Of a DNA stretch of 21,585 nt, positions 875 to 21,090 are shown piece by piece. A program made the translations under genes and the position numbers. This DNA comes from a bacterium. Lineage in GTDB: Bacteria; Bdellovibrionota_C; UBA2361; SZUA-149. The stretch covers positions 1 to 21,585 of the forward strand of contig JAUIMJ010000041.1 of NCBI GenBank assembly GCA_030433295.1, read 5' to 3'. Position 1 is the first letter of the stretch. Every line of letters starts with the position of its first letter. A model generated the notes under the pieces. That model saw only the letters and a list, made by a program, of their open reading frames with translations. It had not been told where the DNA came from and ran no database searches.

Positions 875-1037
875 CTCCCCCTGTTACTTACATAGATATA
901 AGTGTGCGTAATAACGTCACTATTCTGCAAAAGAACGACATATCCCCTCCTTGTCCAATGCCGCCTAAAAATGGTAGAAATCTAAGCGAAAAAGGTAGAG
1001 CAGCCACCAAGGATTGCTAATCAGACTGCGTCAAACG

Positions 1038-2786: not shown

Positions 2787-2830
2787 GCGCATGACTGGAA
2801 TCTGCGAACCGAGTAATTGAGAGCTTCGTT

Positions 2831-4348: not shown

Positions 4349-4351
4349 GGG

Positions 4352-4591: not shown

Positions 4592-4606
4592 TGCAAGGAG
4601 AAACCC

Positions 4607-4927: not shown

Positions 4928-4996
4928 GGGCATCACCCTGAGGCTATTGGGCCAGCGTTTCCTGGTCCGCTTTTCGGGCCCGCCTTTTTGGGCCCA

Positions 4997-5134
4997 ATTT
5001 TCCGGGATACCACTTTTTCGCCACGGTGGTCTTGGCTTCCCGGGATACGTGCACAGGCGAATCTTAGAAAAAGTAGTTGATGTTTGTTTCCGCGCAGCCA
5101 GGCACGTAACAAACAGCGGTAGCTGCTTGCAGCT
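4997..5134 (+). promoter_or_regulatory. Repeat-rich putative promoter/operator region upstream of the membrane-fused spermidine synthase gene.
   Basis: 221-nt gap. Direct repeats CCGGGATAC (x2) and TTTTNGGGCCC (x2). Inverted repeat TGTTTGTT-N19-AACAAACA (5081-5115). Palindrome AGCTGCttGCAGCT (5121-5134). Followed by SD AGGTGA-N5-ATG. Confidence 0.3.
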
Positions 5135-5148
5135 CGCCAGGTGATGCA

Positions 5149-6720
5149 ATGAAAAACACTGGTGTCGATGATTCCGAGGCAGAATGGCCCGGTACTGAAG
5201 GCAGACCGTATCTGAGCAACAAGCAGGTGTGCATACTTGCCACCTCGATACTCATTACGTCGCTCTGCGCCCTTGTATATCAGTTACTGATAAGCAGCCT
5301 GTCTTCCTACCTTCTTGGTAGTAGTATACTTCATTTCTCCCTCACTATCGGCTTCTTCATGTTCTTCATGGGAGTCGGATCCTACGCCTCGAAGTATCTC
5401 GTCAAAAATCTCGTAGAGCAATTTATCCAGATTGAAATAGCGATAGGATTTGTTGGCGGCATTTCCGCTGCGCTTCTCTACACGAGCTTTAGTCTCAGTA
5501 AGTATTACTACATCAGCGCACTTCTTATCATAGCAATCATTAGCTGCCTCATAGGCCTGGAAATTCCTCTCGTCGCTCGTATCCTCAGAGCGCGCAGCGA
5601 ATTAAAAGATACACTCGCTAACATTCTCGCGGTTGACTATCTCGGTGCGCTCTTCGCCTCGATTATCTTTCCCTTGATTCTGGTCCCCTATCTTGGACTG
5701 ATGCGCACCGCCTTCATGATTGGCATCCTCAACACGGCCATCGCTCTGGTCACCCTGCGAGCATTTCTGCCTTATGTTGTCAGGGCAAAGAGATTATTAT
5801 TTCTGGGCATTGCGGTAATTTCACTGCTTAGCGTTGGTCTGGTGTTTTCCTTTCGCCTCATTGGCTATCTTGAAGGCTTTATTTATCAGGACCCAATAAT
5901 CTACTCGGCAGAGAGCAGCTACCAGCGCATAATCCTGACCAAGCATAAAAACGATATTCGTCTATTTCTCAATGGCAACATTCAGTTCAGTTCCATCGAT
6001 GAATATCGCTACCATGAACCCCTGGCACATATAATTCTTCCCAAATTGCCCTCTCGTGAACAGGTCCTGATTCTCGGAGGGGGTGATGGATTGCTCGCAC
6101 GTGAGGTTCTCAAGTACAAAGATGTGAAGACGGTGACAATCGTCGACATCGATAAACGCATGACAGACCTCGGGCAGAAAAACCCTATCTTCCAAAAGCT
6201 CAATGATTCATCGATGAACGACCCTCGGGTACGCATTGTTAATGAAGATGCCTTTGGCTTTATCCAGGAGTCCGTCGAGCGCTTCAATGCCGTTTTGATT
6301 GACCTGCCGGACCCCAATGACCTCGCAATAGGAAAGCTCTACAGCGTGGAATTTTATCAGGCGATAAAGAAGCGTCTTACGGCTGATGGTATGCTGATTA
6401 CCCAGGCATCATCACCGTTTTTTGCCCGTGCGGCATACTGGTGTGTTGCCAGCACGCTTGAAGAAGCCTTCGACCACGTCACCCCGCTTTGGGTCTATGT
6501 ACCCTCCTTCGGACCCTGGGGCTTTCACATCGCCTCTTCGGTTTCCTACTCTCTTCAGGATGGCGACATACCGGTTTCCACCCAGTATCTGACTCCTTCG
6601 GTGGTTCCCTCACTCTTTGTGTTTGATGCCGACAGCGAACGAGTTCCGACTGACGTCAATCGCCTCGATAACCAGAAGCTCGTCGAGTATTATGAGGCTG
6701 GCTGGAACGAGTGGAACTAG
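5149..6720 (+). CDS. speE: Polyamine aminopropyltransferase (spermidine/spermine synthase family) fused to an N-terminal ~7-helix membrane domain.
   Basis: C-terminal half has the canonical motifs LILGGGDGLLAREV ... VTIVDID ... VLIDLPDPND...LYSVEFYQ ... QASSPF. N-terminal 230 aa are almost entirely hydrophobic helices. Good SD. Confidence 0.85.
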   Translation: MKNTGVDDSEAEWPGTEGRPYLSNKQVCILATSILITSLCALVYQLLISSLSSYLLGSSILHFSLTIGFFMFFMGVGSYASKYLVKNLVEQFIQIEIAIGFVGGISAALLYTSFSLSKYYYISALLIIAIISCLIGLEIPLVARILRARSELKDTLANILAVDYLGALFASIIFPLILVPYLGLMRTAFMIGILNTAIALVTLRAFLPYVVRAKRLLFLGIAVISLLSVGLVFSFRLIGYLEGFIYQDPIIYSAESSYQRIILTKHKNDIRLFLNGNIQFSSIDEYRYHEPLAHIILPKLPSREQVLILGGGDGLLAREVLKYKDVKTVTIVDIDKRMTDLGQKNPIFQKLNDSSMNDPRVRIVNEDAFGFIQESVERFNAVLIDLPDPNDLAIGKLYSVEFYQAIKKRLTADGMLITQASSPFFARAAYWCVASTLEEAFDHVTPLWVYVPSFGPWGFHIASSVSYSLQDGDIPVSTQYLTPSVVPSLFVFDADSERVPTDVNRLDNQKLVEYYEAGWNEWN

Positions 6721-6851
6721 AGCAGTCTTCGGATAAAGATAGTACGATTTTATCCTACGACTGCTCTAGTTTTTCTTCTCCCGCACGGACAGACGTCCGT
6801 GCTCGAAAGCATTTTTCGCTGCGCTCTTAAAAAAATGCTGCGGAGCAGTCT
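6719..6851 (-). repeat. Inverted-orientation copy (~1.1 units) of the three-hairpin intergenic repeat family that is tandemly arrayed at 19004-19340. Starts on the TAG stop of the speE-like gene. Candidate terminator / REP-like element.
   Basis: The reverse complement of 6719-6851 aligns with ...AGCATTTTTc..GAAAAATGCT...GCACGGAC-N4-GTCCGTGC...AGAGCAGTCGYAGGATAAA-N10-TTTATCCGAAGACTGCTCT of the 19-kb array. Confidence 0.7.
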
Positions 6852-7047
6852 CCCCTCTCCCTCACAGACCTGTGTCGGCTCTCTAAAGCGGCGCCCCCTC
6901 GTAGCTCGCTAAGGATGCGGAAGGGCTCACCTCTTTATAATTAGCGGCGCTTTAAGGCTTCGGAGCACCTTCCCTGCTTGACCTGCTGGCCGCTATTTGG
7001 GATCTTCTATCGAGTAACGATGTATTAACAAGTCCCTTCGGATTCCT

Positions 7048-11300: not shown

Positions 11301-11846
11301 GCGCATCTCACCGATGATAAAGAATTACTGCATTCCTTACTCGAAATGCACATTCAGACATTCGGGCAATTAAAAACGTTGTATGAAAGCGACAGCGGTT
11401 CTGTCTATGTCCCTGATGCGGCATATACTCGCTTGGCTGCTCGGCATCGATTGATCAGCGCCTCATTTGAGCAATGGAAGATTGGTCGCGGGGAGCCGCT
11501 GACCCCGGAAATTATTCAGGAGGCCCTGCCCAAAACGAAGCATCGCGAGAGCATTCTCGATATCTGGAGAGAAACCAGAGACACTATTCGCTTCCTCGAT
11601 GCGATCGATCCCAACAAAGGGAAAGCAGTCTCCAGGTTCAAGGTCTCGCAGTTTGAACAGTTGAAAGATGCTCTGGTCGAACGAGGAAACTTCAGTGAAA
11701 CTCCCCCGCTTTCCGAAGAGGAGTTCCACCGCAACGTTCTGGGTGAAGTGTCAGCAGAGGTTGAAGCAGGCGCACTCAGCACATCTGAGGCGGCTAAAAT
11801 GTCACACGCGCTCTGGGAGCAACTTTCAAACGCCACACTGTATTAG
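8340..11846 (+). CDS. SbcC/Rad50-like ABC-type ATPase with very long coiled coil (B. subtilis YhaN-like). A predicted transmembrane hairpin sits mid-coiled-coil.
   Basis: Walker A GANASGKSS at N-terminus. ~700 aa of heptad-like, charged, Leu/Glu/Arg/Gln-rich sequence. Hydrophobic pair VTVISFLLLCVLALAGGHFV / LYGMAALGLISLTPVW at ~aa 410-457. C-terminal signature LSQLSSGTKAQ and Walker B PLFFDEALS. SD AAGGAGGA upstream; 4-nt overlap with the SbcD-like gene. Confidence 0.8.
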   Translation: MKLLDLSIVRMPGIERPIRIQSLDDTFNIILGANASGKSSMCRAAQALLWVNAIPKDSYWEVHSHWSQKNPSISGQTEDSDERANIEIRIKGQEHQVLQFGTEREALNVPSEALRACYLITLEDLFVSDGSDLAAMMANEMAGGFNIHAVKDKPPVRAKRVHHESKQLKLAQSNFRKIDAQQKSLKQSEVKLAQLKDDIEKLQAKANLKDSIQQAIELYRLTQEDEVRTQRLSSFPKGLESLYGNELSELDELQQELKRLEKNALDYERQIEEAKLQIAEQSLPEDGVSDSEMEVLRTLISSLSPVDHAVTQQKQKIRKCEQALSIDALADSADLLNGQDPRPELLQRLSAQAYALEEASSREARLSAEFSLLERRLDANPLGDFSSTDYENALNLLNEVIEQHQELIRNRISTVTVISFLLLCVLALAGGHFVHPVLYGMAALGLISLTPVWQAMRGARIKLAACEEACLQNSLLAGRTDINVDEPETLRNSVATLSTEKAKLLVIEERRQGEEQQYQVLEHEFAEAKKLTAGIRRECSALLADLGVQSAEDSFSISFLSRDLNQHAERTAELREAVSSYRARLTEREEILERISVVLKPFGYAACLTTEEAQAHGNALQKRRDLQQKAVELRSRALSGQNETKRAQERLASKFEELYRRANLPSGARSELESRMNMLQEFRETKNEEAAARGTIQHLTEKLRRETPELLERSLLDLDRNAVEAEAALTEYHELRDEVVRIETAIAATRSERSLEVAAESVRAAEEQLREAALENAKSELCSLLLEDIQAEHLQKNRPEVFTRSSQLFSQFTHARYTLSDIAPDKHGASFRVFDAQQGTSLELSQLSSGTKAQILLACKVAFAQSAERGDPIPLFFDEALSTSDPLRFQAVIDALCSLARGGRQILYFTSQPKDTQVIADLCEKQSCSVALHTISKDMERTDASLLISSPLFASVPEPGGLSYEEYVRELNIEPLSLSKGSAAIHLAHLTDDKELLHSLLEMHIQTFGQLKTLYESDSGSVYVPDAAYTRLAARHRLISASFEQWKIGRGEPLTPEIIQEALPKTKHRESILDIWRETRDTIRFLDAIDPNKGKAVSRFKVSQFEQLKDALVERGNFSETPPLSEEEFHRNVLGEVSAEVEAGALSTSEAAKMSHALWEQLSNATLY

Positions 11847-11932
11847 CCTAAAGAAATTAGCCCAGAGACATTAACCCAATGAATGTACGCCGGAGACACA
11901 GGTAGTAATCACCGCCAGACTTGGTGTCGAGG

Positions 11933-12331
11933 TCAGTAACTCGGTTTTTGATTGAACTCCGGGTCATTCCAAAGAGAAAATCGATACCAGCACATAAGAA
12001 TCACCAGGAGGACGAGAATACCGCCGACAAACTGCTGCCGATCTGACTTCTCCCCCCTCCCGGAGGCAAAGAACAGTAGAAACATACCCGCACTTCCGGC
12101 AAGAACCATAATAAGACTGGCCGCAGGATGCGTCATGAGGCGCTGAAAAAGCGTCGGCCCACCAATGCTTTCGACCGCGTAGGCTTCATCACCCCATTGG
12201 GCGGACACAGGTTCCACAGCCAGAATAAGCGCTCCAAACACGGCAAGTGAACAACGCAAATAACACTCTGAAAGGAATTGTAAGGGCTTTCGAGGAAAAC
12301 CGTATCGAGCCATTTCTCCTTCCTCCTTCAA
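11933..12331 (-). CDS. Hypothetical small membrane protein (2-3 predicted helices).
   Basis: Hydrophobic stretches LAVFGALILAV, LIMVLAGSAGMFLLFFA, VGGILVLLVILMCWY. No recognisable family. Confidence 0.4.
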   Translation of the reverse strand: MKEEGEMARYGFPRKPLQFLSECYLRCSLAVFGALILAVEPVSAQWGDEAYAVESIGGPTLFQRLMTHPAASLIMVLAGSAGMFLLFFASGRGEKSDRQQFVGGILVLLVILMCWYRFSLWNDPEFNQKPSY

Positions 12332-12423
12332 TTCTTATGTCCGCCCCGGAAAAGGGTACCGGATAAGGGTTCAAGGATACGTTCACAAAGGATACCATCG
12401 CGAATGTCTATCCAGAGACTGCT

Positions 12424-12957
12424 CTAGGCACGAGGAAACAGGCGCGCATGCCATGATTCAGAAAATGGACGGGCAAAGTCACCCAATCTATCGGTGGTAT
12501 CAACGGTGGTATCAAAAACGGTTATATCCGGCGAGAACTCATCCGATTTCACGTAGCTCGCAAAATCTGCTCTGTTCATCTGCTCGACCTCAGCCCCACG
12601 CAAAAAGAATATATCGGAAAGGTCGGCCATCTCATTCCCCCCTGCCGAGAGTTCCTGCCGAACTGCCCCAAACAGAGAGTCTATGGAACAACCGGAGACC
12701 GCTGCCGATTGTTTATCAGCTCCGACCAACACAAAACGTCCATACGCCACCTCGAGCGCCCCTGAAACCGCAGCGCCATGAGCCTCCCAGCCCGCAAGAA
12801 ACGAAGAAAGCCGTGAACTGAGCTCGGCACAACGCGGGTCCGATTTCGACAATGAGGCTCGTAAGGGAAACACCCATAGACGAGAGCCTGGGGCGAGAGT
12901 GGCAAGGCCGGGAAAGGAAGCTCCGGCGTCCTTAGCGGAAATTTCTACATGATCCAT
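12424..12957 (-). CDS. Hypothetical protein (177 aa), family not recognised. Immediately downstream of the AdoMetDC-spermidine synthase fusion on the same strand.
   Basis: Intact ORF with protein-like composition, same strand as and ~100 nt after the speH-speE fusion. No motif I can name with confidence. Confidence 0.45.
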   Translation of the reverse strand: MDHVEISAKDAGASFPGLATLAPGSRLWVFPLRASLSKSDPRCAELSSRLSSFLAGWEAHGAAVSGALEVAYGRFVLVGADKQSAAVSGCSIDSLFGAVRQELSAGGNEMADLSDIFFLRGAEVEQMNRADFASYVKSDEFSPDITVFDTTVDTTDRLGDFARPFSESWHARLFPRA

Positions 12958-13061
12958 TTTTCATTCCCTATGGTGGCACATCGCAAACGACATACGATTG
13001 CAACGCCTGTGTTGATCTTCCGTAAGAATTCGGCCGAACTTCATCAGCACGCTTCGCCGAA

Positions 13062-14141
13062 CTATCCTTTCCGAGCGCTGATAAATCGCCATCGACCAAA
13101 AGCAGATGGTAAATATACCAGTTTTGATCGTATATCAGAAAAATGTGCTGTAATCATTTCCTCAAGCAAGTCGTTGGTGACGCGATCGAACTCTGAACAA
13201 CATTGCAGCACAATCACTCCGCCGTCCGCTAATGACTCAGAAATCCTGTGGAACATCTCGCGAAGATACGTCTCACGGGGCACCTGAGTAAAAGCCTCCG
13301 GATGCATACTAAGGTCGACCACAACGCAGGAATACTCTCCTGGCGAAACGCGAGCCAAAAAGGCCACCACATCGTCATACGTAAGCTTGACTCGAGAATC
13401 ACTAAAGGCGTCACCGCAATGTTCCGGCAGGTATTGCTGGCTCAGAGACACGACCCCCTCATCAATTTCAACCAAGGTTATTGATGCGGGATCATGCTCC
13501 AGCAAGGTCTTCAGAACACCGCCATCCCCACCTCCTAGCAACAAAACATTGGCAAGGTCAGCAGATCGTTCATTGAGCATTTCAAGCATTACCTGACTGT
13601 AACGCTCGGCATCCAGTTCTGCGACCTGCAAATCATCATCCAACACCAGCATTCGACCAAAACGAGTGCTGTCTGCGATACATACTCGCTGGAATGCGGT
13701 AGCGCCGTTATAAATGGTTTTCTCTATCGGCACCCGATGATCCACGCCCTCAGCAGAACTCAGACAGATACTATCTGTTCGCTGAACATCCAGAACATCG
13801 CCTCGTTGAATCAAAGCCCTTCTCACATGGGCGGGAGCAAGGTACGTTACAAAGTGATCGACAATACTCCGTGATTTTTCGGGCTCAGGCGAGCAGGTAA
13901 ATATATCCACGGAAGCATGGGCTGCCTCGGGATACGTGTGAATAACAACGTGAGATTCGCTGATTATCCCCAGAACCGTCAGCCCATGAGGCTCATACGA
14001 ATGGGAGTGAAGGGAGATAAGGCCGAAGCCGGCGCTCTCTATCCCCCTGCGCAAAATCTCGAGCATCCCATCGGCATCACCCAACATTCCCGCAGCACAT
14101 CCCTCAAGTTCTGCCAGAATTTGACTGCCTGCCGGTTTCAT
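13062..14141 (-). CDS. speH-speE: Fusion protein: pyruvoyl-dependent S-adenosylmethionine decarboxylase proenzyme (SpeH/SpeD class 1b, N-terminal ~125 aa) + spermidine synthase-family aminopropyltransferase (C-terminal).
   Basis: N-terminus LAELEGC...LISLHSHSYEPHGLTVLGIISESHVVIHTYPEAAHASVDIFTC closely matches Bacillus-type SpeH, including the ES self-cleavage site. C-terminus has LLLGGGDGGVLKTLLEH...ITLVEIDEGVV...VVVDLS... aminopropyltransferase motifs. Confidence 0.85.
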   Translation of the reverse strand: MKPAGSQILAELEGCAAGMLGDADGMLEILRRGIESAGFGLISLHSHSYEPHGLTVLGIISESHVVIHTYPEAAHASVDIFTCSPEPEKSRSIVDHFVTYLAPAHVRRALIQRGDVLDVQRTDSICLSSAEGVDHRVPIEKTIYNGATAFQRVCIADSTRFGRMLVLDDDLQVAELDAERYSQVMLEMLNERSADLANVLLLGGGDGGVLKTLLEHDPASITLVEIDEGVVSLSQQYLPEHCGDAFSDSRVKLTYDDVVAFLARVSPGEYSCVVVDLSMHPEAFTQVPRETYLREMFHRISESLADGGVIVLQCCSEFDRVTNDLLEEMITAHFSDIRSKLVYLPSAFGRWRFISARKG

Positions 14142-14471
14142 TTCGCATTCTCAGGTTTACTAGGGCCCCGCGTATACTTGCTTCGGCCAGAGGACATAAC
14201 ACGGACCGAGGAAAGATCCATGCCCAAAACTTAGATAAACTACACGGTTATTCCTGCCGACGCTACCGCTAAGCCCAGCTTTTACGGTTGCTGCCCCTGG
14301 CACAAACCTGTACCATTACCGTAGTTTATCAGACATCTGTGACCACCCGCGTGGATGATGCTTTGGAAGCCTGCCCATCGACTGGCTTAAAGCCCGGGCG
14401 GATGCTGTGTAATTCGCCGCTTTTGGAGTGCTCGAAACTTGGCGCAAAACAGAACAAGTGACAGAACGACC

Positions 14472-15212
14472 ATGCCCTTGCGGGCCTGCACCCTGCTGAT
14501 GCTTATCTCGGTGCTCTTCCCCCTCAGCGCCTGCAAGGAGGATGTGTATCTTGGTACCAGCGCGGAGCGGGTTGCCAGTGGTGGCGGTACTGACGGCAGC
14601 GGAACCTCAAGTGGAGGGGATGCGGACGATGACGCCGACGCTCTGAGCAACGAAGTAGAGGAGAGTTTCGATCTCGACCCCCGCAAAGCTGACTCTGATC
14701 ATGACGGCATCGCAGACGGACTTGAGTTTGTCGGTGACGGCGGAGATCCACTAAATGGCAGTGCCACACCCAATTCCCTAAACAGAGTTAAAGTGCTGAG
14801 TAGCTCGGACATCGTTCTCAATGACCCGGACCGGGACGGCGATGGTCTGGGGAGTATTTTTGAAGACGAGAATGACCTCGACGATACTGATCCGGATATC
14901 GACGACGACGGGTATAGTGATGGCATTGAACTCGTCGCCAATTCGAACCCCTTTCTCGCCGACGACAGACCGACCAGGGATGCACCTCCCGCAAGCGATG
15001 GCATAGACCGGACAGGTAGCGCCCCGGTCGACTCAGATGGTGATGGAATTTCTGACCAGCTGGAATCTCTTAATGGTACGATTTCCACGCAGCAGGACAC
15101 GGACAGTGATGGATTCAGTGACGGGATCGAGCTGCTTATGGGCAGCGACGAGACGGACAACGCAAGCGTGCCAAATTTTGGGGTTCCCGCCAGACCGGAG
15201 AGCCTTAGTTGA
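14472..15212 (+). CDS. Lipoprotein with multiple thrombospondin-type-3-like calcium-binding Asp repeats.
   Basis: Signal peptide plus lipobox (LFPLSAC). At least five DxDxDGxxDxxE-type repeats: DSDHDGIADGLE, DRDGDGLGSIFEDE, DIDDDGYSDGIE, DSDGDGISDQLE, DTDSDGFSDGIE. ATG at 14472 preferred over the upstream TTG (14439). Confidence 0.7.
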   Translation: MPLRACTLLMLISVLFPLSACKEDVYLGTSAERVASGGGTDGSGTSSGGDADDDADALSNEVEESFDLDPRKADSDHDGIADGLEFVGDGGDPLNGSATPNSLNRVKVLSSSDIVLNDPDRDGDGLGSIFEDENDLDDTDPDIDDDGYSDGIELVANSNPFLADDRPTRDAPPASDGIDRTGSAPVDSDGDGISDQLESLNGTISTQQDTDSDGFSDGIELLMGSDETDNASVPNFGVPARPESLS

Positions 15213-15316
15213 GACCGATCGACCGCGGAGAACATCCAATACTCAGGTATACTCCCATACGTCGCCGAACACGAAGATCAAAGTTTTAGAACGGAAGGAA
15301 CAGAAACGGTATTATC

Positions 15317-16162
15317 ATGATTCTGCGAAAAACAATTGTAACCTGTGCTTTACTTGGCTCTATGAGTGTCTTTGCGCCAACGCCCGTAACTGCAGAAACT
15401 ACGGATTTTGGTGGATACCCGGATCGCTTCCGGGCAGGCGGTGATCAAACACCGCCTCGGTGCCAGATTGACGCCCCGCGCTCAGCCACTTCCTCGTTCT
15501 TTGTGCAGTGGGATTGTGACGATGATGTAAGTCCGGACGATGAAATACGGACCGAACTCTGGTTGTTGCGTCGAGGCGCCCCAACCACGGTCAAGATTGC
15601 CGACTTTCTCGGATTCCCGGCCTCGGTCCAAATCAATGAAGCAATTCTTCAGTCTGAAAGCTTTACCGATGGGCTTCCGATTACGCTTCGTCTCCTCGCT
15701 CGAGACAGAGCAGGAAACGGCTCGCTGTCACCCTTTTTAACTATCCTCGGTCAGGACAACTCAGTCGATACCTGTGATCTGGTCTTGCTGACAGACACCA
15801 CCGAGTCTGATGGCGGAACGACTGGCCTGCCTTCCATGTCGGTAGTCCTCGACAACGCCATGGTAAGCAGTCAACAAAGCAGCAATGTCGATCTACGAAT
15901 ATCAACACCAATCGCAGCAACCGCAGACCCCTGCGAAATCGACAGCGTATGCTCTGACGGTTCAGTTAACTTCGTAGCAACGATTCTTATCGATGACGAT
16001 AACAATGCCACCGCGAGCATCAGTATTACGCCCGGCTCAGTACTGGCCAACGTCAGTGGCAGCGCGGTAGTAAACGGTACTGACCTGTCGAGTTTAAGCC
16101 TTCAGGGCACGACCGTCATCGATAACGTGGTTACCAGCGTCTCTCTGAGCTGTCAGCAGTAG
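15317..16162 (+). CDS. Secreted hypothetical protein (signal peptide, Ser/Thr/Asp-rich, several Cys).
   Basis: N-terminal signal peptide MILRKTIVTCALLGSMSVFAPTPVTA. No recognisable catalytic motif. Co-directional with and 104 nt after the TSP3 lipoprotein. Confidence 0.55.
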   Translation: MILRKTIVTCALLGSMSVFAPTPVTAETTDFGGYPDRFRAGGDQTPPRCQIDAPRSATSSFFVQWDCDDDVSPDDEIRTELWLLRRGAPTTVKIADFLGFPASVQINEAILQSESFTDGLPITLRLLARDRAGNGSLSPFLTILGQDNSVDTCDLVLLTDTTESDGGTTGLPSMSVVLDNAMVSSQQSSNVDLRISTPIAATADPCEIDSVCSDGSVNFVATILIDDDNNATASISITPGSVLANVSGSAVVNGTDLSSLSLQGTTVIDNVVTSVSLSCQQ

Positions 16163-16229
16163 CTATATACTTCAGACTCTGTACTTCTGCATTCTCTGCT
16201 TCCTCACTCCCAGGGGTAGTGGCGAAGGT

Positions 16230-16260
16230 GCGCGCTGCGTTCAGTGCCTGAGAAGCGCGC
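16230..16260. terminator. GC-rich hairpin (GCGCGCT-N17-AGCGCGC) between convergent genes (secreted protein on +, lgt on -). Possible bidirectional terminator, but no U-tract.
   Basis: Inverted repeat read from sequence. Overlaps the lgt stop codon. Confidence 0.3.
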
Positions 16261-17036
16261 TAGCGAACGTCTCCTCGCTTGAAATACATAAGCGCCAGGC
16301 CGGGCAGGCAAATCGCAATAGCGACAATTTGGGCCTGCGTGAGAGGCCCAAAAATGCGCGGCTCAATGCGAATAATTTCTACGAGGAACCTGGCAAGAGA
16401 CGAAAGAAACAGATACAGGCCGAACAACTGCCCGGCACCTGGCAGGATACGACGAGTTGCCGGAGATAGCAGAATAAACGCGATGCAGAGGGCCCCGAAA
16501 CTTTCATACACAGGGGCCGGATGATGTAGGACTCCGGGCTCGGTAGGTATCACTCCGTGGACATACTGCATGCCCCAGGGCAGCTGCGTTGGCCCACCAT
16601 AATCCCCGTCCCCGGATAATTGGCAGCCAATCCTCCCTACCGCATAGCCACCCGCAAGTGATGGTGCGGCGAGGTCCCCGAAAACGACAAAGTCCTTTCC
16701 CTCTCTACGCAGGAGAAGCCAGACACCAAGAGCACCACCGATAAAACCACCATAGAAGACAAAGCCAGCTCCCCCAAAAAGAGTCGCAAGGGGCGCATCA
16801 AAAAATGCCTGGGGATAGCTGATGATATACCCCACACGGGCGCCAACAATACCCCCGACCGCTGCCCAGGTGACCATGTCTTCGGCCAGCTCACCGGGCT
16901 CACCGGCCGCAAGCAAACTCAGCTGCAGTCGTCGCCAGGCCGCCAGAAACGCACAAACCATCATCAGGCCAAAGCTATGCAGCGGGAGTGCGAAATCAAG
17001 CAGTGGAAGAGGAATTTCAAAAAGAGTAGGTATCAC
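16260..17036 (-). CDS. lgt: Prolipoprotein diacylglyceryl transferase.
   Basis: Multi-pass membrane protein with the Lgt signature region GRIGCQLSGDGDYGGPTQLPWGM and N-terminal FGLMMVCAFLAAW resembling WYGLMY. GTG start overlaps the upstream tlpA-like stop (GTGA). Confidence 0.85.
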   Translation of the reverse strand: MIPTLFEIPLPLLDFALPLHSFGLMMVCAFLAAWRRLQLSLLAAGEPGELAEDMVTWAAVGGIVGARVGYIISYPQAFFDAPLATLFGGAGFVFYGGFIGGALGVWLLLRREGKDFVVFGDLAAPSLAGGYAVGRIGCQLSGDGDYGGPTQLPWGMQYVHGVIPTEPGVLHHPAPVYESFGALCIAFILLSPATRRILPGAGQLFGLYLFLSSLARFLVEIIRIEPRIFGPLTQAQIVAIAICLPGLALMYFKRGDVR

Positions 17037-17596
17037 GATGCTTCTCCGAGTAGTCGGCTCACCTCTTCAACAAACGCAGGCTTATCCCAAACGCGATCGC
17101 TGATTATTCGAACCAGAGAAGTCCTGGTTTCAGGATCTTCAAAGTCGAGAAACACTCCCTCTCGGCTTATGAAAAAAGACTCGGGAAAGCCTTCGAGTCC
17201 GTATTTTTGTGAAATCTGTAATTGGGGATCGAGCAAAACGGGGAATTCGATATTGTTTTTGGCTACAAATTTCTCCACCTCGGAACGAGCCCCCGGTGGA
17301 TCTACATTAACCGCGATAATCTCAAATCCACGGTCCTTGAGTTTGGTCCGCAGATTCTGCATCGAAGGCATTTCAGCAACACAGGGGGCACACCACGTCG
17401 CCCAAAAGTTCAGCATCACCACCTTCCCACGAAAATCGGCCAGCGCCACGTCCTGCCCCTTCAAATCGGGAAGAGAAAAACCCAGCGCAGGTGCTCCGGC
17501 AGAAAAACGACTTTCACGTAACTCTTTCGTGTTGTCACACGCCAGAATGAAAAAGCATCCGAGCAGCATGACAAACTGAAAATACCTGTTCATCAA
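17033..17596 (-). CDS. TlpA/ResA-like thioredoxin-fold thiol:disulfide oxidoreductase lipoprotein.
   Basis: Signal peptide plus lipobox (FFILAC). Thioredoxin active site FWATWCAPCVAEMP. Typical TlpA family length and architecture. Co-transcribed with lgt. Confidence 0.8.
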   Translation of the reverse strand: MMNRYFQFVMLLGCFFILACDNTKELRESRFSAGAPALGFSLPDLKGQDVALADFRGKVVMLNFWATWCAPCVAEMPSMQNLRTKLKDRGFEIIAVNVDPPGARSEVEKFVAKNNIEFPVLLDPQLQISQKYGLEGFPESFFISREGVFLDFEDPETRTSLVRIISDRVWDKPAFVEEVSRLLGEAS

Positions 17597-17846
17597 CCCC
17601 CTGCGCGATACGCGCTATCTATCATTGAAACATACTCACCAGACTTCGTTAGCAGGAGTACGAGCTTTTTCAAATAAAAGCGAGGGATGGGTGAATGTTG
17701 ATATAGCCAATACACCTGAGAAGTACGTGGGTTATGAGAATTAGTCGTTGAGCACAAAGCCCCCTATACACACACCAAATTGCCCAACAATGGAGCGGTT
17801 AAGCCTTCGCAACTCGAGCTATTCTATAGCATTTCAAAATTTCCCT

Positions 17847-17863
17847 AGCATTTCAGAAATGCT
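17847..17863. promoter_or_regulatory. Perfect 17-bp palindrome AGCATTTCaGAAATGCT in the tlpA / lpxL divergent promoter region (preceded by a TAGCATTTCA direct repeat).
   Basis: Read directly from sequence. Confidence 0.3.
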
Positions 17864-17947
17864 CTATTTAACCTATACATTAGCCCCGAACTCGGGAAGG
17901 GCCCCTGCCCTACACGTAACCTACTATTTTACTAATATAGACTGATT

Positions 17948-17983
17948 TACTGGCACAGACTGAACTACTGGCACAGAGTGAAC
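17948..17983 (+). promoter_or_regulatory. Tandem 18-bp direct repeat TACTGGCACAGA(C/G)TGAAC x2, ending on/overlapping the GTG start of the LpxL-family gene.
   Basis: Read directly from sequence: 17948-17965 and 17966-17983 differ at one position. Confidence 0.3.
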
Positions 17984-19006
17984 CTCAACGAAAACATAGT
18001 GTCCTTTGGCGCTAACATTCTCAAAATTATCTCTCGTATCCTGCCCCTGCGCCTGTGGCTATGGCTCTGCCGAAACATTCTGGGCCTGATTGCTCGCTTC
18101 AGAAAGCGCGAATTGGACATCTGCATTGCGCAAATGCGCTATGCAAACGAAAGAGGCTCCGGCGACGCACCCTTTGTTGAGAAAAATGATTATCGCGAAA
18201 TGAGTATACGGGTGTTTCGCCATCTCGGCGAATGCATCGGGGAACTCTTTGTCATTGATAGACTGTTCAAAGAAGTAGCGGGCCCCGCACTGGCTCCCAA
18301 GCCGCCATTGGACGAACTCCCTACTGCATTTGAGCACTTTAGCTCGGATGGATGGTTACCCGTTCGCGATTTGATAAACCAGGGTAAAGGCGCGGTAGTG
18401 CTAAGCGGGCATATCGGATGTATTGAGCTTCTTGCTGCGTATTACACTCGATGTGGTGTTCCCCTCACGGTCGCCGGACGACTGCCAAACTCATCGGGCT
18501 TTGCCGGATGGCTCGAGAAACTTCGAGAATCCTATGGAGTTGAAACGATGTGGCGTGAGGATCCGGGAAGTTCGAGGAAACTACGCAATGCACTTAAGGA
18601 GGGGCGCTTTATTGCGGCGCTCATCGATCAGGACACCAAATTAGAGAGCGGGTACGCCCCATTTTTTGGCATGGATGCCGCTCACCCAATCAGTCCCATC
18701 CAAATGGCGGTAAAGTTTAAGCTCCCGGTATTCTCCTCCTTTATTGTGCGGGACGGGCCCAACCACCACCATATGCACACCGAACAAATTCACTACGAAC
18801 CGAAGGATCCCAAAGCGAAACAGAAGATCCTCGATATCTTCAGCGAACGCCTTGAGCAGATGGTACGGCAGTACCCCGAACAATGGGTCTGGTGGCACAA
18901 ACGCTGGCGTCGCCGACCGGAAATCAATTACGAGGAACACCCGGAAAAACTCCAGGGAAGCGCGGCATATGTCGAGTGGGTAGATGCGCAGCGAAAAACG
19001 CTTTAG
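17978..19006 (+). CDS. lpxL: Lipid A biosynthesis late acyltransferase (LpxL/LpxM/HtrB family lysophospholipid acyltransferase).
   Basis: N-terminal membrane anchor LPLRLWLWLCRNILGLIA. C-terminal family hallmark YPEQWVWWHKRWRRRP. The GTG start (17978) is the first in-frame start; the upstream frame closes at 17933. Confidence 0.75.
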   Translation: MNLNENIVSFGANILKIISRILPLRLWLWLCRNILGLIARFRKRELDICIAQMRYANERGSGDAPFVEKNDYREMSIRVFRHLGECIGELFVIDRLFKEVAGPALAPKPPLDELPTAFEHFSSDGWLPVRDLINQGKGAVVLSGHIGCIELLAAYYTRCGVPLTVAGRLPNSSGFAGWLEKLRESYGVETMWREDPGSSRKLRNALKEGRFIAALIDQDTKLESGYAPFFGMDAAHPISPIQMAVKFKLPVFSSFIVRDGPNHHHMHTEQIHYEPKDPKAKQKILDIFSERLEQMVRQYPEQWVWWHKRWRRRPEINYEEHPEKLQGSAAYVEWVDAQRKTL

Positions 19007-19340
19007 AGCGCGAACGTAAGTCCCCTCGGGAGAAAAGGATTTAGAGCAGTCGCAGGATAAAATCGCACTTGTTTATCCGAAGACTGCTCTAGAGCATTTT
19101 TCAAAAAAGCGAAGCGAAAAATGCTTTCGAGCACGGACGCAAGTCCGTGCGGGGAAAAAGAATTTAGAGCAGTCGTAGGATAAAATCGTATCAGTTTATC
19201 CGAAGACTGCTCTAGAGCATTTTTCAAAAAAGCGAAGCGAAAAATGCTTTCGAGCACGGACACAAGTCCGTGCGGGAAAAAAAAATTTAGAGCGGTCGCA
19301 GGATAAAATCGTATCAGTTTATCCGAAGACTGCTCTAAAA
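19004..19340 (+). repeat. Tandem array (~3.3 copies, 123-bp period) of a three-hairpin repeat unit filling the convergent intergenic space between lpxL (stop 19006) and the LDLa lipoprotein gene (stop 19335).
   Basis: Unit starts at 19040, 19163 and 19286 (period exactly 123). Each unit has three stems: AGAGCAGTCGYAGGATAAA-N10-TTTATCCGAAGACTGCTCT, AGCATTTTTC-N13-GAAAAATGCT, GCACGGAC-GCAA/ACAA-GTCCGTGC. A degenerate partial unit lies at 19004-19039. Copies are >95% identical. Confidence 0.85.
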
Positions 19341-20534
19341 CGGAATCGCCTGGCAGCCGTTCAGGAAGTCATCCTGATCGCATTGCTGATTCGCACCACA
19401 ACAGCAGCAGGTAGGCGCGCAGCTTCCCGCACTCTCCATGGGGCAACCATTAGAAGCGATACAGCAGAGGACCTCTGCGGTGCAGATGCTTCCCGATTCG
19501 TCCGCCGCGTTGGCGCAATCAATATTTCCGTCGCAGAGGTTTTCCCGACAGGTCAGACCGCCGTCACCACACTGGAAGACACCCTTAGCGCAGTTGGGCG
19601 TCATCACCTGATCATCTCCGCCATCAGTCGTACCTCCTGTGGTGTCGGGAACCGCTGTAGGCTCAGGAGTTGGCGTTGGCGGGGCGAGCACGGAAGTTAT
19701 TGTGGGGAAATTTGATACGATAACATCATTCAGCTCGGATGAGACATTCAGAGCACAATCGCTCGCATCTTCAAAGCGTCCCAACCAACCCGGCGCGCTA
19801 AAGTCACAGGAACTTCTTTCGCTTAATCCCTCGACAATCCGCGATTGGATCTCCTGATCGTCGTCAGAGCTGGTAACAATTCGCAAAACATCCAGCAGAA
19901 GTGAGCCACAGGCAGAAGCGGTGATCTGTAAAAACTCTGACGGAGCTGCATCGATGTTTGCCGCATCCTGACCGGCACAGCCGAACGTTCTGACAGCAAT
20001 GATAACGCCCAGCAGCAATCGCCGGACAACTTCGACTGATTCAACTCGGTTGAGACGGGAGCTCGTAAGCAACTTTACCGTTTCCTCCGGGAGCACTACG
20101 GTTTGCTGTCCCCCGGCCTGCACAACACCGTCTTCCCGGATGAAGGTAAGCACAACGTCAATAGTCGTGCTGGTAGCATTGAGGAAAACAGCGGTGACAT
20201 TACCCGTTTGCGCGCTCACGGGGAGACCGTCCTCACCCACGGTAACTCGGGCTACCTGCTTCTCCGGGGAGACGTAGAGCACATGTGAAATAGACGTGGA
20301 GCCGGCTTCAGTGTTGAGAACAATAACGCTCTCTCCGGTATTCAGGCCGGCAGTCGTTGCGACTGGGCTCAGAGGCGACTGAGTCTGTCCGAGCATCAGG
20401 CTTTGAAAGGCACGAGAGACCCGTCCGACTGGCGGTGTATCGTCGCGCTCAACACCCTTGCAGCCAGAAGAAAAAACGATACTTACCGTAAACAAGGCCA
20501 GGCATACGGCTTGCAATTTTTTCATGGGGCCCAT
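19335..20534 (-). CDS. Cys-rich lipoprotein with a C-terminal LDL-receptor class A (LDLa)-like calcium-binding module.
   Basis: SD GGAG 5 nt upstream of ATG. Signal peptide plus lipobox (VSIVFSSGC). C-terminus CAKGVFQCGDGGLTCRENLCDGNIDCANAADESGSIC fits the six-Cys LDLa pattern (C-x6-C ... CDGxxDC...DE..C), followed by a CC/CCCC-rich tail. Pro/Thr linker PPTPTPEPTAVPDTTGGTTDGG. Confidence 0.7.
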   Translation of the reverse strand: MGPMKKLQAVCLALFTVSIVFSSGCKGVERDDTPPVGRVSRAFQSLMLGQTQSPLSPVATTAGLNTGESVIVLNTEAGSTSISHVLYVSPEKQVARVTVGEDGLPVSAQTGNVTAVFLNATSTTIDVVLTFIREDGVVQAGGQQTVVLPEETVKLLTSSRLNRVESVEVVRRLLLGVIIAVRTFGCAGQDAANIDAAPSEFLQITASACGSLLLDVLRIVTSSDDDQEIQSRIVEGLSERSSCDFSAPGWLGRFEDASDCALNVSSELNDVIVSNFPTITSVLAPPTPTPEPTAVPDTTGGTTDGGDDQVMTPNCAKGVFQCGDGGLTCRENLCDGNIDCANAADESGSICTAEVLCCIASNGCPMESAGSCAPTCCCCGANQQCDQDDFLNGCQAIPF

Positions 20535-21090
20535 GCGTACTCCAGAAGCGCTTTCGCTGCTTGTTTGATTCCTTCAATAATTTCGACAGCCAGCCACTAC
20601 TGGTTCCGAACTCATTGGGGATTCTCACAATCCGAGGTCTATCAGTCAAGATTTCCCGAGACTGAGCAGATTAGATTGTATGATTCGGTAGAAAGCAGTG
20701 AACGAGTTGCCCCACCTAAGGCGACACGGGTGATGGGCAGAGCAGCCATAGATTCTGAGCCGATCCGCTTCCCCTAGTAATTTACTACGTTAATGCGGGG
20801 GATACTCAAGATTCAGTGAGGCTGCGCATACTCAGTGAGCCGCCGAATGTCGGAAGGGAGCGGCAATTCAGCGGCCATCGACAGAAGCCGATAGAGCAGC
20901 GAAATCGCTAAGACCTTGCCAGAAAAGATACCGCAAGATAGTCAAAAAGGGGAGAAAAAGTCGTAGCGCAAGCCACTGGCCTTCCCCTTTGATTTCCTCG
21001 AAACTCCCTGTTGTTTGCCTTGAGAATAGAGTACATTTGAAATTCCCGGTTTTCGATTGAATACAGCCCAGCCTTTGAAACAATAGATTT

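What the first reader, a model, noticed from the sequence alone, without database searches (positions are those of the whole stretch)
19004..19340. 123-bp three-hairpin repeat family: tandem x3.3 array here, inverted single copy at 6719-6851, both fused to stop codons
The repeat period is exactly 123 bp, three units, >95% identical. Each unit folds into three strong stems:
- a 19-bp interrupted stem, AGAGCAGTCGYAGGATAAA / TTTATCCGAAGACTGCTCT;
- a 10-bp AU-rich stem, AGCATTTTTC / GAAAAATGCT;
- an 8-bp GC stem closed by a GNRA-like tetraloop, GCACGGAC-GCAA-GTCCGTGC.
The array occupies the whole space between two convergent genes and begins on the TAG of lpxL. The second locus (6719-6851) is in the opposite orientation and begins on the TAG of the membrane speE. 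So the element lands immediately 3' of ORFs in either orientation, like REP/BIME or MITE-like terminator-insulator elements. No transposase is nearby and the unit does not resemble CRISPR (no unique spacers). It could be a family-specific structured RNA element (terminator, mRNA 3'-stabiliser or small-RNA reservoir), or a mobile miniature element with target preference for stop codons (TAGAGC).
Basis: seen in the sequence. Interest (0 to 1): 0.6.

Follow-up and report, generated by a model that had tools for sequence, protein, structure and literature searches.

The report
Stop-codon-abutting palindromic repeat family (REP/MITE-like)
A lineage-specific family of small hairpin-forming DNA repeats sits at gene ends in this uncultured Bdellovibrionota-like bacterium, donating TAG stop codons and terminator-like hairpins; this is a new example of a well-known kind of bacterial "junk-turned-useful" repeat, not a new kind of system.

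Summary
A 123-bp unit of three hairpins (H1, H2, H3) is repeated 2.9 times at 18986-19338, and an inverted copy lies at 6717-6890.

- Only units 2 and 3 are 95% identical; unit 1 is about 75% identical to them.
- The GNRA loop is not conserved.
- The 6717 locus carries a second, degenerate unit.
- Two further loci exist: a partial H1 at 12389-12427 and a remnant near 975-1012.

A diverged copy lies on another NCBI contig and is seen only as a translated protein, P0123.

Three orthologous sites in a relative (72-78% amino-acid identity) lack the element. At one of them the relative has the same native TAG stop on which the window's element begins.

Four genes use a TAG inside the element as their stop codon. 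Three of these TAGs are termini of H1. The fourth, lpxL's, lies in the degenerate first unit.

In the direction of the abutting gene, H1 (dG -20 to -28 kcal/mol) is followed by a T-tract, so it looks like an intrinsic terminator.

I found no transposase in the window, no Rfam match, and no copies in about 1.1 Mb of relatives' DNA or in the public DNA collections.

Best reading: a REP/BIME- or TA-flanked MITE-like dispersed palindromic family, probably co-opted as gene-end terminators or 3' hairpins. REP termini that supply TAG stops are already documented (PMC3733652). Structural covariation and genome-wide copy number could not be tested, because only this contig is available.

The parts
18986..19338 (-). 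Tandem array, period 123 bp, 2.9 units. Read on the minus strand (orientation A) it runs H1c - T9 tract - H3 - H2 - H1b - T tract - H3 - H2 - H1a - degenerate T tract/H3'/H2'. It fills the whole spacer between the convergent lpxL-like and 399-aa genes.
   Evidence: TRF; the repeat finder D1; sequence; fold z = -13; unit identities of 95% and 75%.
19288..19337 (-). H1c, the outermost H1 hairpin. Its terminal TAG (19335-19337, minus strand) is the stop codon of ORF 19335-20534(-). On that strand it is followed by AAATTTTTTTTTCCC, which makes it terminator-like.
   Evidence: dG -19.6 kcal/mol and tail score -6.07.
19165..19214 (-). H1b hairpin (TAGAGCAGTC...GACTGCTCTA).
19042..19091 (-). H1a hairpin.
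19093..19125 (-). H2, the AT-rich 10-bp stem AGCATTTTTC/GAAAAATGCT. A second copy lies at 19216-19248. The H1/H2 junction is the 12-bp palindrome TGCTCTAGAGCA.
   Evidence: dG about -10 to -11 kcal/mol.
19131..19150 (-). H3, the GC-rich 8-bp stem GCACGGAC/GTCCGTGC with a variable tetraloop. A second copy lies at 19254-19273. The copy in unit 1 (about 19008-19030) is broken.
   Evidence: dG about -15 to -16 kcal/mol.
19004..19006 (+). TAG stop of the lpxL-like ORF 17978-19006, inside degenerate unit 1 (TTTAGAGCGCG). The last ~4-7 codons (AQRKTL) lie in register with H2 of the repeat.
   Evidence: C-terminal tails of homologues are variable. The relative has TGA and a tail 6 aa longer.
6717..6890 (+). 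Second locus, in orientation A on the plus strand. It runs H1 (6718-6768) - TTTTTCTTCTCCC - H3 (6783-6802) - H2 (6808-6839), then a degenerate second unit: truncated H1 start GGAGCAGTCTCC, then H3' CACAGACCTGTG, then CTCTAAAGC.
   Evidence: CM R1 scores 140.7 bits. The degenerate tail aligns to the unit with 0 of 300 shuffles reaching the score.
6718..6720 (+). TAG that is both the stop of the polyamine aminopropyltransferase (speE-like) ORF 5149-6720 and the first three bases of H1. The relative has the same ...TGG AAC TAG but no element.
12389..12427 (-). Partial H1: left arm CTAGAGCAGTCTCTGGATAG plus a short inner stem, with the right arm lost. Its TAG (12424-12426, minus strand) is the stop of ORF 12424-12957(-). 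It lies in a 92-bp spacer where the relative has 11 bp.
   Evidence: Alignment score 39, with 0 of 200 shuffles reaching it.
975..1012 (-). Degenerate remnant (right half of H3, linker, left half of H2, with TAGAGCAGCC on the plus strand at 996), in the spacer between ORFs 23-874 and 1106-2122.
   Evidence: Alignment score 28, with 0 of 200 shuffles reaching it.

Best explanation
The feature is a lineage-specific family of non-coding, dispersed palindromic repeats of the REP/BIME or TA-flanked MITE kind.

**Anatomy**
- The basic module is a hairpin bounded by TA-GAGCA...TGCTC-TA.
- Three versions differ in their inner stems: H1 (50 nt), H2 (33 nt) and H3 (20 nt). Together they make a 123-bp mosaic.

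**Origin and spread**
- The mosaic, or H1 alone, was copied to several gene ends in this lineage. It is absent from the same sites in a relative.
- The 123-bp tandem array probably arose by unequal recombination or slippage between the H1 copies that flank each H2-H3 module.

**Consequences for the host genes**
- The element's end reads TA-G on either strand. A gene running into it in frame therefore terminates on the element's TAG.
- Insertion at, or just upstream of, the native stop replaces a short and variable C-terminal tail.

**Likely function**
- When transcribed with the upstream gene, H1 followed by its T-tract acts as an intrinsic terminator and as a 3'-end protective hairpin.
- It looks strong in orientation A (toward the speE-like and 399-aa genes) and weaker in the opposite sense (toward lpxL). 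A5/T5 tracts on both sides give it a bidirectional-terminator layout.

**Shown versus inferred**
- Shown: the sequence family, the hairpins, the stop-codon sharing, the empty orthologous sites and the terminator-like features.
- Inferred: mobility and its mechanism, termination in vivo, and how the array formed.
For: **It is a dispersed family**
- Four loci in 21.6 kb align significantly to the unit.
- TAGAGCAG occurs 11 times against 0.65 expected.
- P0123, from a different 4.9-kb NCBI contig, translates one diverged unit: 65-70% amino-acid identity, E = 4e-20 in the pairwise comparison.

**It is absent from orthologous sites in a relative**
- The syntenic relative is covered by L001 and L070, with 64-78% amino-acid identity in the compared proteins.
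- Its spacers are far shorter: 54 bp against 328 bp, 11 bp against 92 bp, and 104 bp against 327 bp.
- Neither covariance model finds a copy in the relative.

**Its boundary coincides with stop codons**
- The speE-like gene ends ...TGG AAC TAG in both genomes, and the element starts on that TAG.
- Three TAG termini of H1 and one TAG in the degenerate unit are the stops of four genes.
- The base before TAGAGC varies (C, T, C, G, T, A), so conservation begins at TA.

**It looks like a terminator**
- H1 has dG of -20 to -29 kcal/mol.
- The tail scores are -3.8 toward the speE-like gene and -6.07 toward the 399-aa gene. I scored tails with the TransTermHP formula; from memory, that program's default tail cut-off is -2.5.
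- Toward lpxL the score is only -2.16.

**It does not code for protein**
- One-nucleotide indels between copies shift the one open frame.

**There is precedent**
- REP termini often provide the TAG stop to flanking ORFs, and REP clusters are reiterated in tandem (PMC3733652).
- Bacterial MITEs commonly carry a terminal TA and overlap gene 3' ends by a few bp (PMC5896051).
Against: - No transposase (RAYT or DDE) was found in the window. The rest of the genome is unavailable, so mobility is inferred only from presence/absence against a fairly distant relative.
- A target-site duplication cannot be told apart from an extension of the palindrome.
- The 5' tag is YTAG and base-paired. It is not the unpaired GTAG that defines the classic REP super-family.
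- H1 is longer (50 nt) than classic REPs.
- The three hairpins are arranged head-to-tail, not in the alternating orientation of BIMEs.
- There is no expression or 3'-end data, and the interior and lpxL-facing copies have only weak T-tracts.
- No copy was found in the genome, metagenome or viral DNA collections, or in about 1.1 Mb of relatives' loci. Genome-wide abundance is therefore an extrapolation from one contig.
Confidence: 0.62

Rival explanations
1. It is a functional structured RNA: a cis-acting 3'-UTR element or a tandem sRNA array. On this reading the three hairpins are selected at the RNA level, including the conserved G-N-A/G-A-A 3x3 internal loop of H1 on the array's plus strand.
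For: - The predicted folds are very stable, with z = -13 and -11.
- The internal-loop bases of H1 are the same in all full copies.
- One obligatory compensatory change, G-C to A-T, occurs in H3 of the P0123 copy.
- There is a G.U-compatible change on one strand in H1c.
Against: - Rfam gives no match, even at E <= 10.
- No promoter-like site was found inside the elements scanned (1-20000).
- The copies are too few and too alike for covariation to be tested.
- The wobble evidence conflicts between strands.
- The H3 loop, including the supposed GNRA, varies between copies.
- H1 in P0123 has lost its TAG and carries an obligatory mismatch.
- Degenerate and truncated copies (12389-12427, 975-1012, 6840-6890) behave like decaying repeats.
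- One compensatory pair among 37 is expected by chance in roughly 10-20% of cases (my estimate).
Confidence: 0.12
2. It is a DNA-level protein-binding or uptake signal. The conserved 20-bp arm TAGAGCAGTCnnnGGATAAA would be recognised as double- or single-stranded DNA, for example as a DNA-uptake sequence, or as a nucleoid, gyrase or IHF site as in BIMEs. On this reading the hairpin potential comes from inverted pairs, as it does for DUS/USS pairs that double as terminators.
For: - The arm sequence, including its unpaired triplet, is conserved between loci.
- The 8-mer is over-represented.
- Inverted pairs lie at gene ends.
- It is established, from my own knowledge, that Neisseria DUS and Pasteurellaceae USS occur as inverted pairs in terminators. 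only lists the Kingsford 2007 title among its references.
Against: - No isolated arm lies inside a coding region of the window. The one apparent case at 5414 is conserved coding sequence also present in the relative.
- The arms are always part of the larger mosaic or of its remnants.
- No candidate binding protein or competence context was found.
- The 123-bp mosaic with H2 and H3 is not explained by this reading.
Confidence: 0.1
3. It is a purely local duplication or an assembly artefact with no family behind it.
For: - The window is a short-read MAG contig, and tandem copy number in such assemblies is unreliable.
- No copy was found in any public DNA collection.
Against: - Copies lie at four separate loci on the contig, in both orientations and with 75-95% identity.
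- Another copy sits on a different contig.
- The unit junctions with genes are exact and differ at each site.
Confidence: 0.03
4. It is a protein-coding repeat. One frame of the unit is open (41 codons), and P0123, a deposited NCBI protein, is a translation of a copy.
For: - The minus-strand frame is open across the unit, and 123 = 41 x 3.
- P0123 exists as a deposited protein.
Against: - One-nucleotide indels between the 6717 copy and the array shift the frame.
- No homologous protein family turned up. An exhaustive phmmer search of 1.84 billion representatives finds only P0123 plus two unrelated repeat proteins.
- In the array the ORF is antisense or overlapping to nothing, and it has no ribosome-binding context.
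Confidence: 0.02

Closest known systems
GTAG-tagged REP elements and their clusters (E. coli REP/BIME, Pseudomonas REP/REPIN, Stenotrophomonas SMAG; Di Nocera et al. 2013, PMC3733652)
   Same: - Short dispersed extragenic palindromes lying mostly downstream of genes.
[quoted passage not shown]
- Several stem variants sharing one tag.
- Clusters 'reiterated in tandem along with flanking DNA'.
- Species-restricted families.
   Different: - The tag here is YTAG (C or T; once G, once A) and it is base-paired with CTA. It is not an unpaired GTAG.
- H1 is 50 nt with a 3x3 internal loop, against 20-40 nt for REPs.
- The hairpins are head-to-tail, not mostly head-to-head or tail-to-tail dimers.
- No RAYT gene is seen, although only 21.6 kb of the genome is available.
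TA-flanked bacterial MITEs (Correia/NEMIS, RUP, ERIC; Coxiella QMITE1/2, PMC5896051; Delihas review, PMC2229807)
   Same: - Non-autonomous, about 50-170 bp, with terminal inverted repeats ending in TA.
- They fold into long hairpins when transcribed.
- They are intergenic, overlap the 3' ends of functional genes by a few bp, and alter C-termini.
- They show presence/absence differences between relatives.
   Different: - No parent IS with matching inverted repeats is known.
- The target-site duplication is not demonstrable.
- An exact 123-bp tandem array of the unit is unusual for MITEs.
- The unit is a mosaic of three hairpins that share the same 5-bp base (GAGCA/TGCTC).
Pneumococcal BOX elements and E. 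coli BIME-2 arrays (modular mosaics with variable tandem modules). This comparison rests on my own knowledge; the BOX paper PMC3049150 appeared in the search results but was not read.
   Same: A mosaic of distinct hairpin modules, an internal module repeated a variable number of times, and a location in 3' UTRs or intergenic regions.
   Different: There is no sequence similarity, and the module grammar differs (A-Bn-C for BOX, Y-s-Z-l for BIME-2). BOX and BIME functions (mRNA stability, gyrase or IHF binding) are untested here.
Intrinsic (Rho-independent) bidirectional terminators
   Same: A stable hairpin immediately followed by a T-tract, with an A-tract on the 5' side, placed between convergent genes.
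   Different: - The stem is unusually long (19-21 bp with an internal loop and an 11-12-nt loop).
- The sequence is shared between loci, where ordinary terminators are idiosyncratic.
- The lpxL-facing side has only a T5 tract 5 nt from the stem.

Membership tests
REP / BIME (GTAG-tagged REP super-family, REPtron system) | Short (20-40 bp) imperfect palindrome, extragenic, repeated many times in the genome | tested here: inconclusive
   H3 (20 nt) and H2 (33 nt) fit, but H1 is 50 nt. All loci are extragenic except for small overlaps with gene 3' ends (stop codons; about 20 nt of the lpxL end). There are 4 loci in 21.6 kb plus 1 on another contig. A genome-wide count is impossible because only this contig is available.
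REP / BIME (GTAG-tagged REP super-family, REPtron system) | Conserved unpaired GTAG (or CGTC) tetranucleotide at one end of the stem-loop | tested here: not met
   The base before TAG is C, T, C, G, T or A. The TAG pairs with CTA at the other end of H1. There is no CGTC tag at the stem ends.
REP / BIME (GTAG-tagged REP super-family, REPtron system) | Associated RAYT (IS200/IS605-like Y1 HUH transposase) flanked by the repeats | not testable with these tools
   Pfam finds no Y1 transposase in the 20 window ORFs scanned. The rest of the MAG is not retrievable.
MITE (non-autonomous DNA transposon) | Terminal inverted repeats | tested here: met
   The H1 arms are 19-21 nt and 91-100% complementary (I10-I14). 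The array as a whole is bounded by inverted TTAGAGC at 19003 and 19338.
MITE (non-autonomous DNA transposon) | Target-site duplication flanking each copy | tested here: inconclusive
   TA flanks both ends of every H1, and the speE empty site reads AAC-TA-GGT against AAC-TA-GAGCAG...CTGCTC-TA-G. However, TA...TA is also simply an extension of the palindrome.
MITE (non-autonomous DNA transposon) | Presence/absence at orthologous sites (empty sites) | tested here: met
   Three orthologous spacers in the syntenic relative lack the element. Both covariance models are negative on L001 and L070. The relative is distant (72-78% amino-acid identity), so these are not recent events.
MITE (non-autonomous DNA transposon) | Autonomous parent IS with matching inverted repeats and transposase | not testable with these tools
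   None is present in the window. Exact-pattern scans of the genome, metagenome and viral collections found nothing real.
Intrinsic terminator | Stable GC-containing hairpin followed within 0-2 nt by a T/U-rich tract | tested here: met
   This holds for H1 at 6718-6768 on the plus strand (dG -28, tail TTTTTCTTC) and for H1c on the minus strand (dG -19.6, T9). Interior copies and the lpxL-facing side are borderline or weak, with tail scores of -2.1 to -2.5. The built-in scan missed them because its loop limit is 8 nt.
Intrinsic terminator | Transcripts end at the site in vivo | not testable with these tools
   There are no RNA data for this MAG.
CRISPR array | Short direct repeats separated by unique spacers of similar length; cas genes nearby | tested here: not met
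   The units are contiguous with no unique spacers, and no cas domains were found.
Integron attC site / gene-cassette array | R''/R' core sites (RYYYAAC ... GTTRRRY) bounding an imperfect palindrome after each cassette ORF; intI integrase | tested here: not met
   By inspection, the unit sequence has no GTTRRRY/RYYYAAC pair at the hairpin ends. The units are tandem with no cassettes between them, and there is no integrase.
Known RNA families (Rfam 15) | Covariance-model score at or above the family's gathering threshold | tested here: not met
   There are 0 hits at gathering thresholds over the window. At E <= 10 the only matches are chance-level hits of 7-19 bits to eukaryotic and viral families and one bacterial sRNA family (isrF), all far below their gathering thresholds.

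The most novel reading that the evidence does not exclude
The element may be a portable 'stop codon plus bidirectional terminator' cassette. On this reading a non-autonomous element integrates at the TA of stop codons, and its first base G regenerates TAG at the junction. Its H1 hairpin, flanked by A5/T5 tracts, would then take over transcript 3'-end formation for a large fraction of this lineage's genes. H2 and H3 would be sibling hairpins recognised by the same, still unknown, enzyme through the shared TA-GAGCA/TGCTC-TA base. A related possibility is that the conserved G-N-A/G-A-A internal loop marks a specific RNA-protein recognition site.
Probability: 0.15. Interest if true: 0.55.

Novelty: new member of a known kind. 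Interest (0 to 1): 0.3.

Why it matters
If the reading is right, this adds a REP/MITE-like family from a poorly sampled, uncultured lineage. The nearest GTDB relatives of its lpxL are Bdellovibrionales or Bdellovibrionota MAGs at 46% identity or less.

It also gives a clean example of a selfish palindromic repeat rewriting gene ends. The repeat trims variable C-terminal tails, donates TAG stops to genes on both sides, and installs terminator-like hairpins where a relative has only short spacers.

There are practical consequences:
- Such arrays produce spurious protein calls. P0123 is a deposited 'protein' that is a translated repeat.
- They break or collapse short-read assemblies.
- They could serve as strain-typing (VNTR) markers.

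It does not open a new category of biology. REP termini that supply TAG stops and tandemly reiterated REP clusters are already described.

Tried and rejected
- **Exact-pattern scans.** I scanned for the H1 hairpin (GAGCAGTCnnnGGATA...TATCCnnnGACTGCTC) in genome contigs and metagenome contigs, and for the H3-H2 junction in metagenome contigs and viral contigs. All four returned 0 hits.
- **Half-site scan in viral contigs.** This gave 6 single matches. The unit model (R1) found nothing in those contigs, so I take them as chance.
- **Covariance models.** R1 (whole unit) was run over L001-L070, about 1.1 Mb from relatives plus the six viral contigs; R2 (H1 alone) was run over the window and L001. 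Neither found anything outside the window.
- **Retrieving the source MAG or P0123's contig.** These are not on record, and the cluster look-up gave no accession or name.
- **Translating the array to find other copies.** One real hit, P0123. The exhaustive phmmer search added only P0124 and P0125, which are unrelated repeat proteins.
- **Rfam.** No family matched.
- **Apparent H1 fragment inside the speE coding region (5414, TAGAGCAATTTATCC).** Rejected. It is conserved coding sequence, LVEQFIQ, also present in the relative.
- **TAGAGC stubs at 2120, 20892 and 868.** These are not significant by alignment shuffles. I keep them only as an 8-mer excess.
- **TTATCCGAAG 10-mer in the relative's orthologous lpxL spacer.** Matches of this size occur at E of about 4 across L001, so I do not accept it as a relic.
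- **CRISPR, attC, a type III toxI-like array and a coding repeat.** All considered and rejected; see the membership tests and rival explanations. The toxI idea fails because no toxin gene lies downstream of the array.
- **TAG-rich stop usage as a product of the element.** Rejected. The relative, which lacks the element, also uses TAG in 9 of 21 genes.
Full report
**1. The observation**

The window is a complete 21,585-bp contig of an NCBI MAG. TRF reports one array at 18986-19337 with period 123, 2.9 copies and 90% matches.

- H1 is TAGAGCAGTC-nnn-GGATAAA / TTTATCC-nnn-GACTGCTCTA, 12+7 bp around a 3x3 internal loop, with a 10-12-nt loop.
- H2 is AGCATTTTTC / GAAAAATGCT.
- H3 is GCACGGAC-4 nt-GTCCGTGC.

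The 361-nt region folds at -150.8 kcal/mol, against -88.9 +/- 4.8 for dinucleotide shuffles (z = -13). The opposite strand gives z = -10.9. A reverse-complement copy starts at 6717.

Several details need correcting:
- Units 2 and 3 are 95% identical, but unit 1 is only 75-76% identical to them. The 6717 copy is 84-86% identical to units 2 and 3.
- The H3 loop is GCAA, ACAA or GTCT, so no GNRA loop is conserved.
- The 6717 locus continues to about 6890 with a second, degenerate unit (0 of 300 shuffles reach the alignment score).

**2.

Within the window there are two further loci:
- A partial H1 lies at 12389-12427. Its alignment score is 39, and 0 of 200 shuffles reach it.
- An H3/H2 remnant lies at about 975-1012 (score 28, 0 of 200 shuffles).
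- An H2-like mini-hairpin at 17838-17866 is marginal (2 of 200 shuffles).

The 8-mer TAGAGCAG occurs 11 times against 0.65 expected.

All three hairpins begin with the same bases: H1 with TA-GAGCAGTC, H2 with TA-GAGCATTTTTC and H3 with TC-GAGCACGGAC. The H1/H2 junction is the 12-bp palindrome TGCTCTAGAGCA. The base before TAGAGC varies (C, T, C, G, T, A), so conservation starts at TA.

H1 is not a perfect palindrome. Its unpaired triplets (TTC opposite TAC or TGC) and the loop end ACGATT keep the same polarity relative to H3 and H2 at both full loci. The mosaic was therefore copied as a unit.

**3. Relation to genes**

Pfam and NCBIfam confirm three annotations:
- a polyamine aminopropyltransferase, the membrane speE-like gene (5149-6720; NF002956, 582 bits);
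- an LpxL-type acyltransferase (17978-19006);
- no transposase, integrase or cas domain in the 20 window ORFs scanned with Pfam.

Four genes stop on a TAG that lies inside the element:
- the speE-like gene (6718-6720);
- ORF 12424-12957(-);
- ORF 19335-20534(-);
- lpxL (19004-19006), whose stop lies in the degenerate first unit, TTTAGAGCGCG.

The array therefore supplies the stop codons of both convergent genes.

**4. Comparison with a relative**

The closest available relative is a Logan assembly (SRR12363488 and SRR12363486; loci L001 and L070). It is syntenic, with 72% (lpxL), 78% (speE) and 64% (177-aa protein) amino-acid identity. It has no copy of the element by pattern search, by blastn or by either covariance model.

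Its orthologous spacers are much shorter:

| Spacer | Relative | Window |
|---|---|---|
| lpxL / convergent gene | 54 bp | 328 bp |
| 177-aa gene / next gene | 11 bp | 92 bp |
| speE-like / sbcD-like | 104 bp | 327 bp |

At the speE site both genomes end ...TGG AAC TAG. The window's element begins exactly on that TAG, reading AAC-TA-GAGCAG... where the relative reads AAC-TA-GGTAAAC.

At the other sites the picture is mixed:
- At two sites the relative uses TGA or TAA and has a C-terminal tail 6-9 residues longer.
- At the 399-aa gene it has TAG one codon later.

So the element sits at, or just upstream of, the ancestral stop and replaces a short tail. In lpxL homologues that tail is variable.

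TAG is common in the relative too (9 of 21 genes, against 9 of 17 in the window). TAG-rich stop usage is therefore a property of the lineage, not a product of the element.

**5. Distribution outside the contig**

Exact-pattern scans of the GTDB representative genomes, JGI metagenomes and IMG/VR returned nothing real. The nearest GTDB lpxL loci are Bdellovibrionales, Bdellovibrionota or Oligoflexia MAGs at 46% identity or less. R1 finds nothing in 62 such loci.

Translating the one open frame of the array retrieved P0123, an 89-aa NCBI 'protein' from a 4.9-kb contig. An exhaustive phmmer search of 1.84 billion cluster representatives added only two unrelated repeat proteins.

The most parsimonious back-translation of P0123 shows a diverged copy with about 12% substitutions:
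- Its H3 stem changed GGAC/GTCC to GAAC/GTTC. Both changes are forced by Gly to Glu and Ser to Phe at second codon positions. This is one compensatory pair.
- Its H1 has lost the TAG and has at least one obligatory mismatch.

I estimate that one compensatory pair among 37 would arise by chance in 10-20% of cases. This is a hint, not proof, and covariation remains untestable with the available copies.

**6. Likely function**

On the strand I call orientation A, H1 is followed by a T-tract. At both full loci this orientation points the same way as the gene whose stop is the H1 TAG.

| Hairpin and direction | dG (kcal/mol) | Tail after stem | Tail score |
|---|---|---|---|
| H1 at 6717, toward speE-like gene | -28 | TTTTTCTTC | -3.8 |
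| H1c, toward 399-aa gene | -19.6 | T9 | -6.07 |
| Interior copies and lpxL-facing side | -22 to -26 | weak T-tracts | -2.1 to -2.5 |

I scored tails with the TransTermHP formula; from memory, that program's default tail cut-off is -2.5. The interior and lpxL-facing copies are therefore borderline or weak.

H1 is flanked by GAAAAA on one side and TTTTTC on the other (I7), which is a bidirectional-terminator layout. The built-in terminator scan missed these sites because it allows loops of at most 8 nt.

I therefore infer that H1 acts as an intrinsic terminator and 3'-protective hairpin, and that H2 and H3 are sibling hairpins of the same repeat class.

The exact 123-bp period is most simply explained by unequal recombination between the H1 copies that flank each H2-H3 module. 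This is an inference. Because 123 = 41 x 3 and one frame is open, gene callers can mistake arrays for proteins. However, 1-nt indels between copies shift that frame, so the unit is not coding.

**7. Comparison with known systems**

Di Nocera et al. 2013 (PMC3733652) describe most of the pattern seen here:
- REP families with a terminal GTAG;
- a predominant location downstream of genes and between convergent genes;

Bacterial MITEs typically carry a terminal TA and overlap the 3' ends of functional genes by a few bp (PMC5896051; PMC2229807). REPs within 15 nt of a stop codon can stall ribosomes in E. coli (PMC12306157).

Membership is not clean for either class:
- For REPs, the tag is YTAG and base-paired instead of an unpaired GTAG, H1 is longer than a REP, and no RAYT can be checked.
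- For MITEs, inverted repeats and empty sites are met, but a target-site duplication cannot be separated from the palindrome, and no parent IS is known.

CRISPR, attC, type III toxI-like arrays and every Rfam family are excluded.

**8. Verdict**

Structural covariation, genome-wide copy number, the mobilising enzyme and in vivo termination remain untested, because only one contig of this genome is accessible.

This is a new family of a known kind. Interest is modest (0.3). The most novel reading still open is a stop-codon-TA-targeting 'stop plus terminator' cassette, or a specific RNA-protein recognition motif in H1. I give it about 15%.

Noticed in passing
window, all ORF ends; L001 and L070: TAG is the commonest stop codon in this lineage: 9 of 17 genes in the window and 9 of 21 in the relative that lacks the element. 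In the relative it is often followed by A (TAGA). This is unusual for a genome of about 52% GC and does not depend on the repeat family.
   Followed up: partly
window 7048-11846 (+): An SbcD-like phosphoesterase (sub-threshold TIGR00619 match) and a 1168-aa SMC/SbcC-like ATPase lie immediately downstream of the 6717 palindromic element. SbcCD cleaves DNA hairpins, so the adjacency to a long palindrome is curious, but the same gene order exists in the relative without the element.
   Followed up: partly
window 17939-17983: A separate 18-bp tandem repeat (AGACTGAACTACTGGCAC, 2.5 copies, 88% matches) lies directly upstream of, and overlaps, the GTG start of the lpxL-like ORF. It is unrelated to the 123-bp family.
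   Followed up: no
window 17820-17866: An H2-like mini-hairpin (CTAGCATTTCAGAAATGCTCTA), preceded by a direct repeat of TAGCATTTCA, lies in the divergent promoter region between the AhpC/TSA-like gene and lpxL. Its similarity to the unit is marginal (2 of 200 shuffles).
   Followed up: partly
L001 10999-11008: The relative's 54-bp lpxL/convergent-gene spacer contains TTATCCGAAG, an exact 10-mer of the H1 right arm, at the orthologous position of the array. Within that spacer alone the chance is about 0.01, but matches of this size occur at E of about 4 over the whole locus. It could be a relic or a coincidence.
   Followed up: partly
window 2120-2127, 20892-20899 and 868-874: TAGAGCAG stubs occur at the stop codon of the SPFH-domain gene (1106-2122) and in the spacer at 20892. 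The SLT-domain gene 23-874 ends in ACCGCTCTAG, which resembles an H1 right-arm end. None is individually significant by alignment shuffles.
   Followed up: partly
P0123 (NCBI, 4.9-kb contig) and window 19003-19263 (-): A deposited 89-aa 'protein' (P0123) is a translated copy of this non-coding repeat, and an 86-aa ORF spans the array in the window. These are probably spurious gene calls caused by the 41-codon open frame of the unit.
   Followed up: yes
P0124 (274 aa, source unknown): A weak phmmer hit consists of four 52-aa tandem repeats. It looks like the translation of a different 156-bp DNA repeat array in another organism. It is not related to this family.
   Followed up: no
window 5149-6720 and 13062-14141: The contig carries two polyamine genes: a membrane-fused aminopropyltransferase and an AdoMet-decarboxylase/spermidine-synthase fusion. 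Both are conserved in the relative.
   Followed up: no
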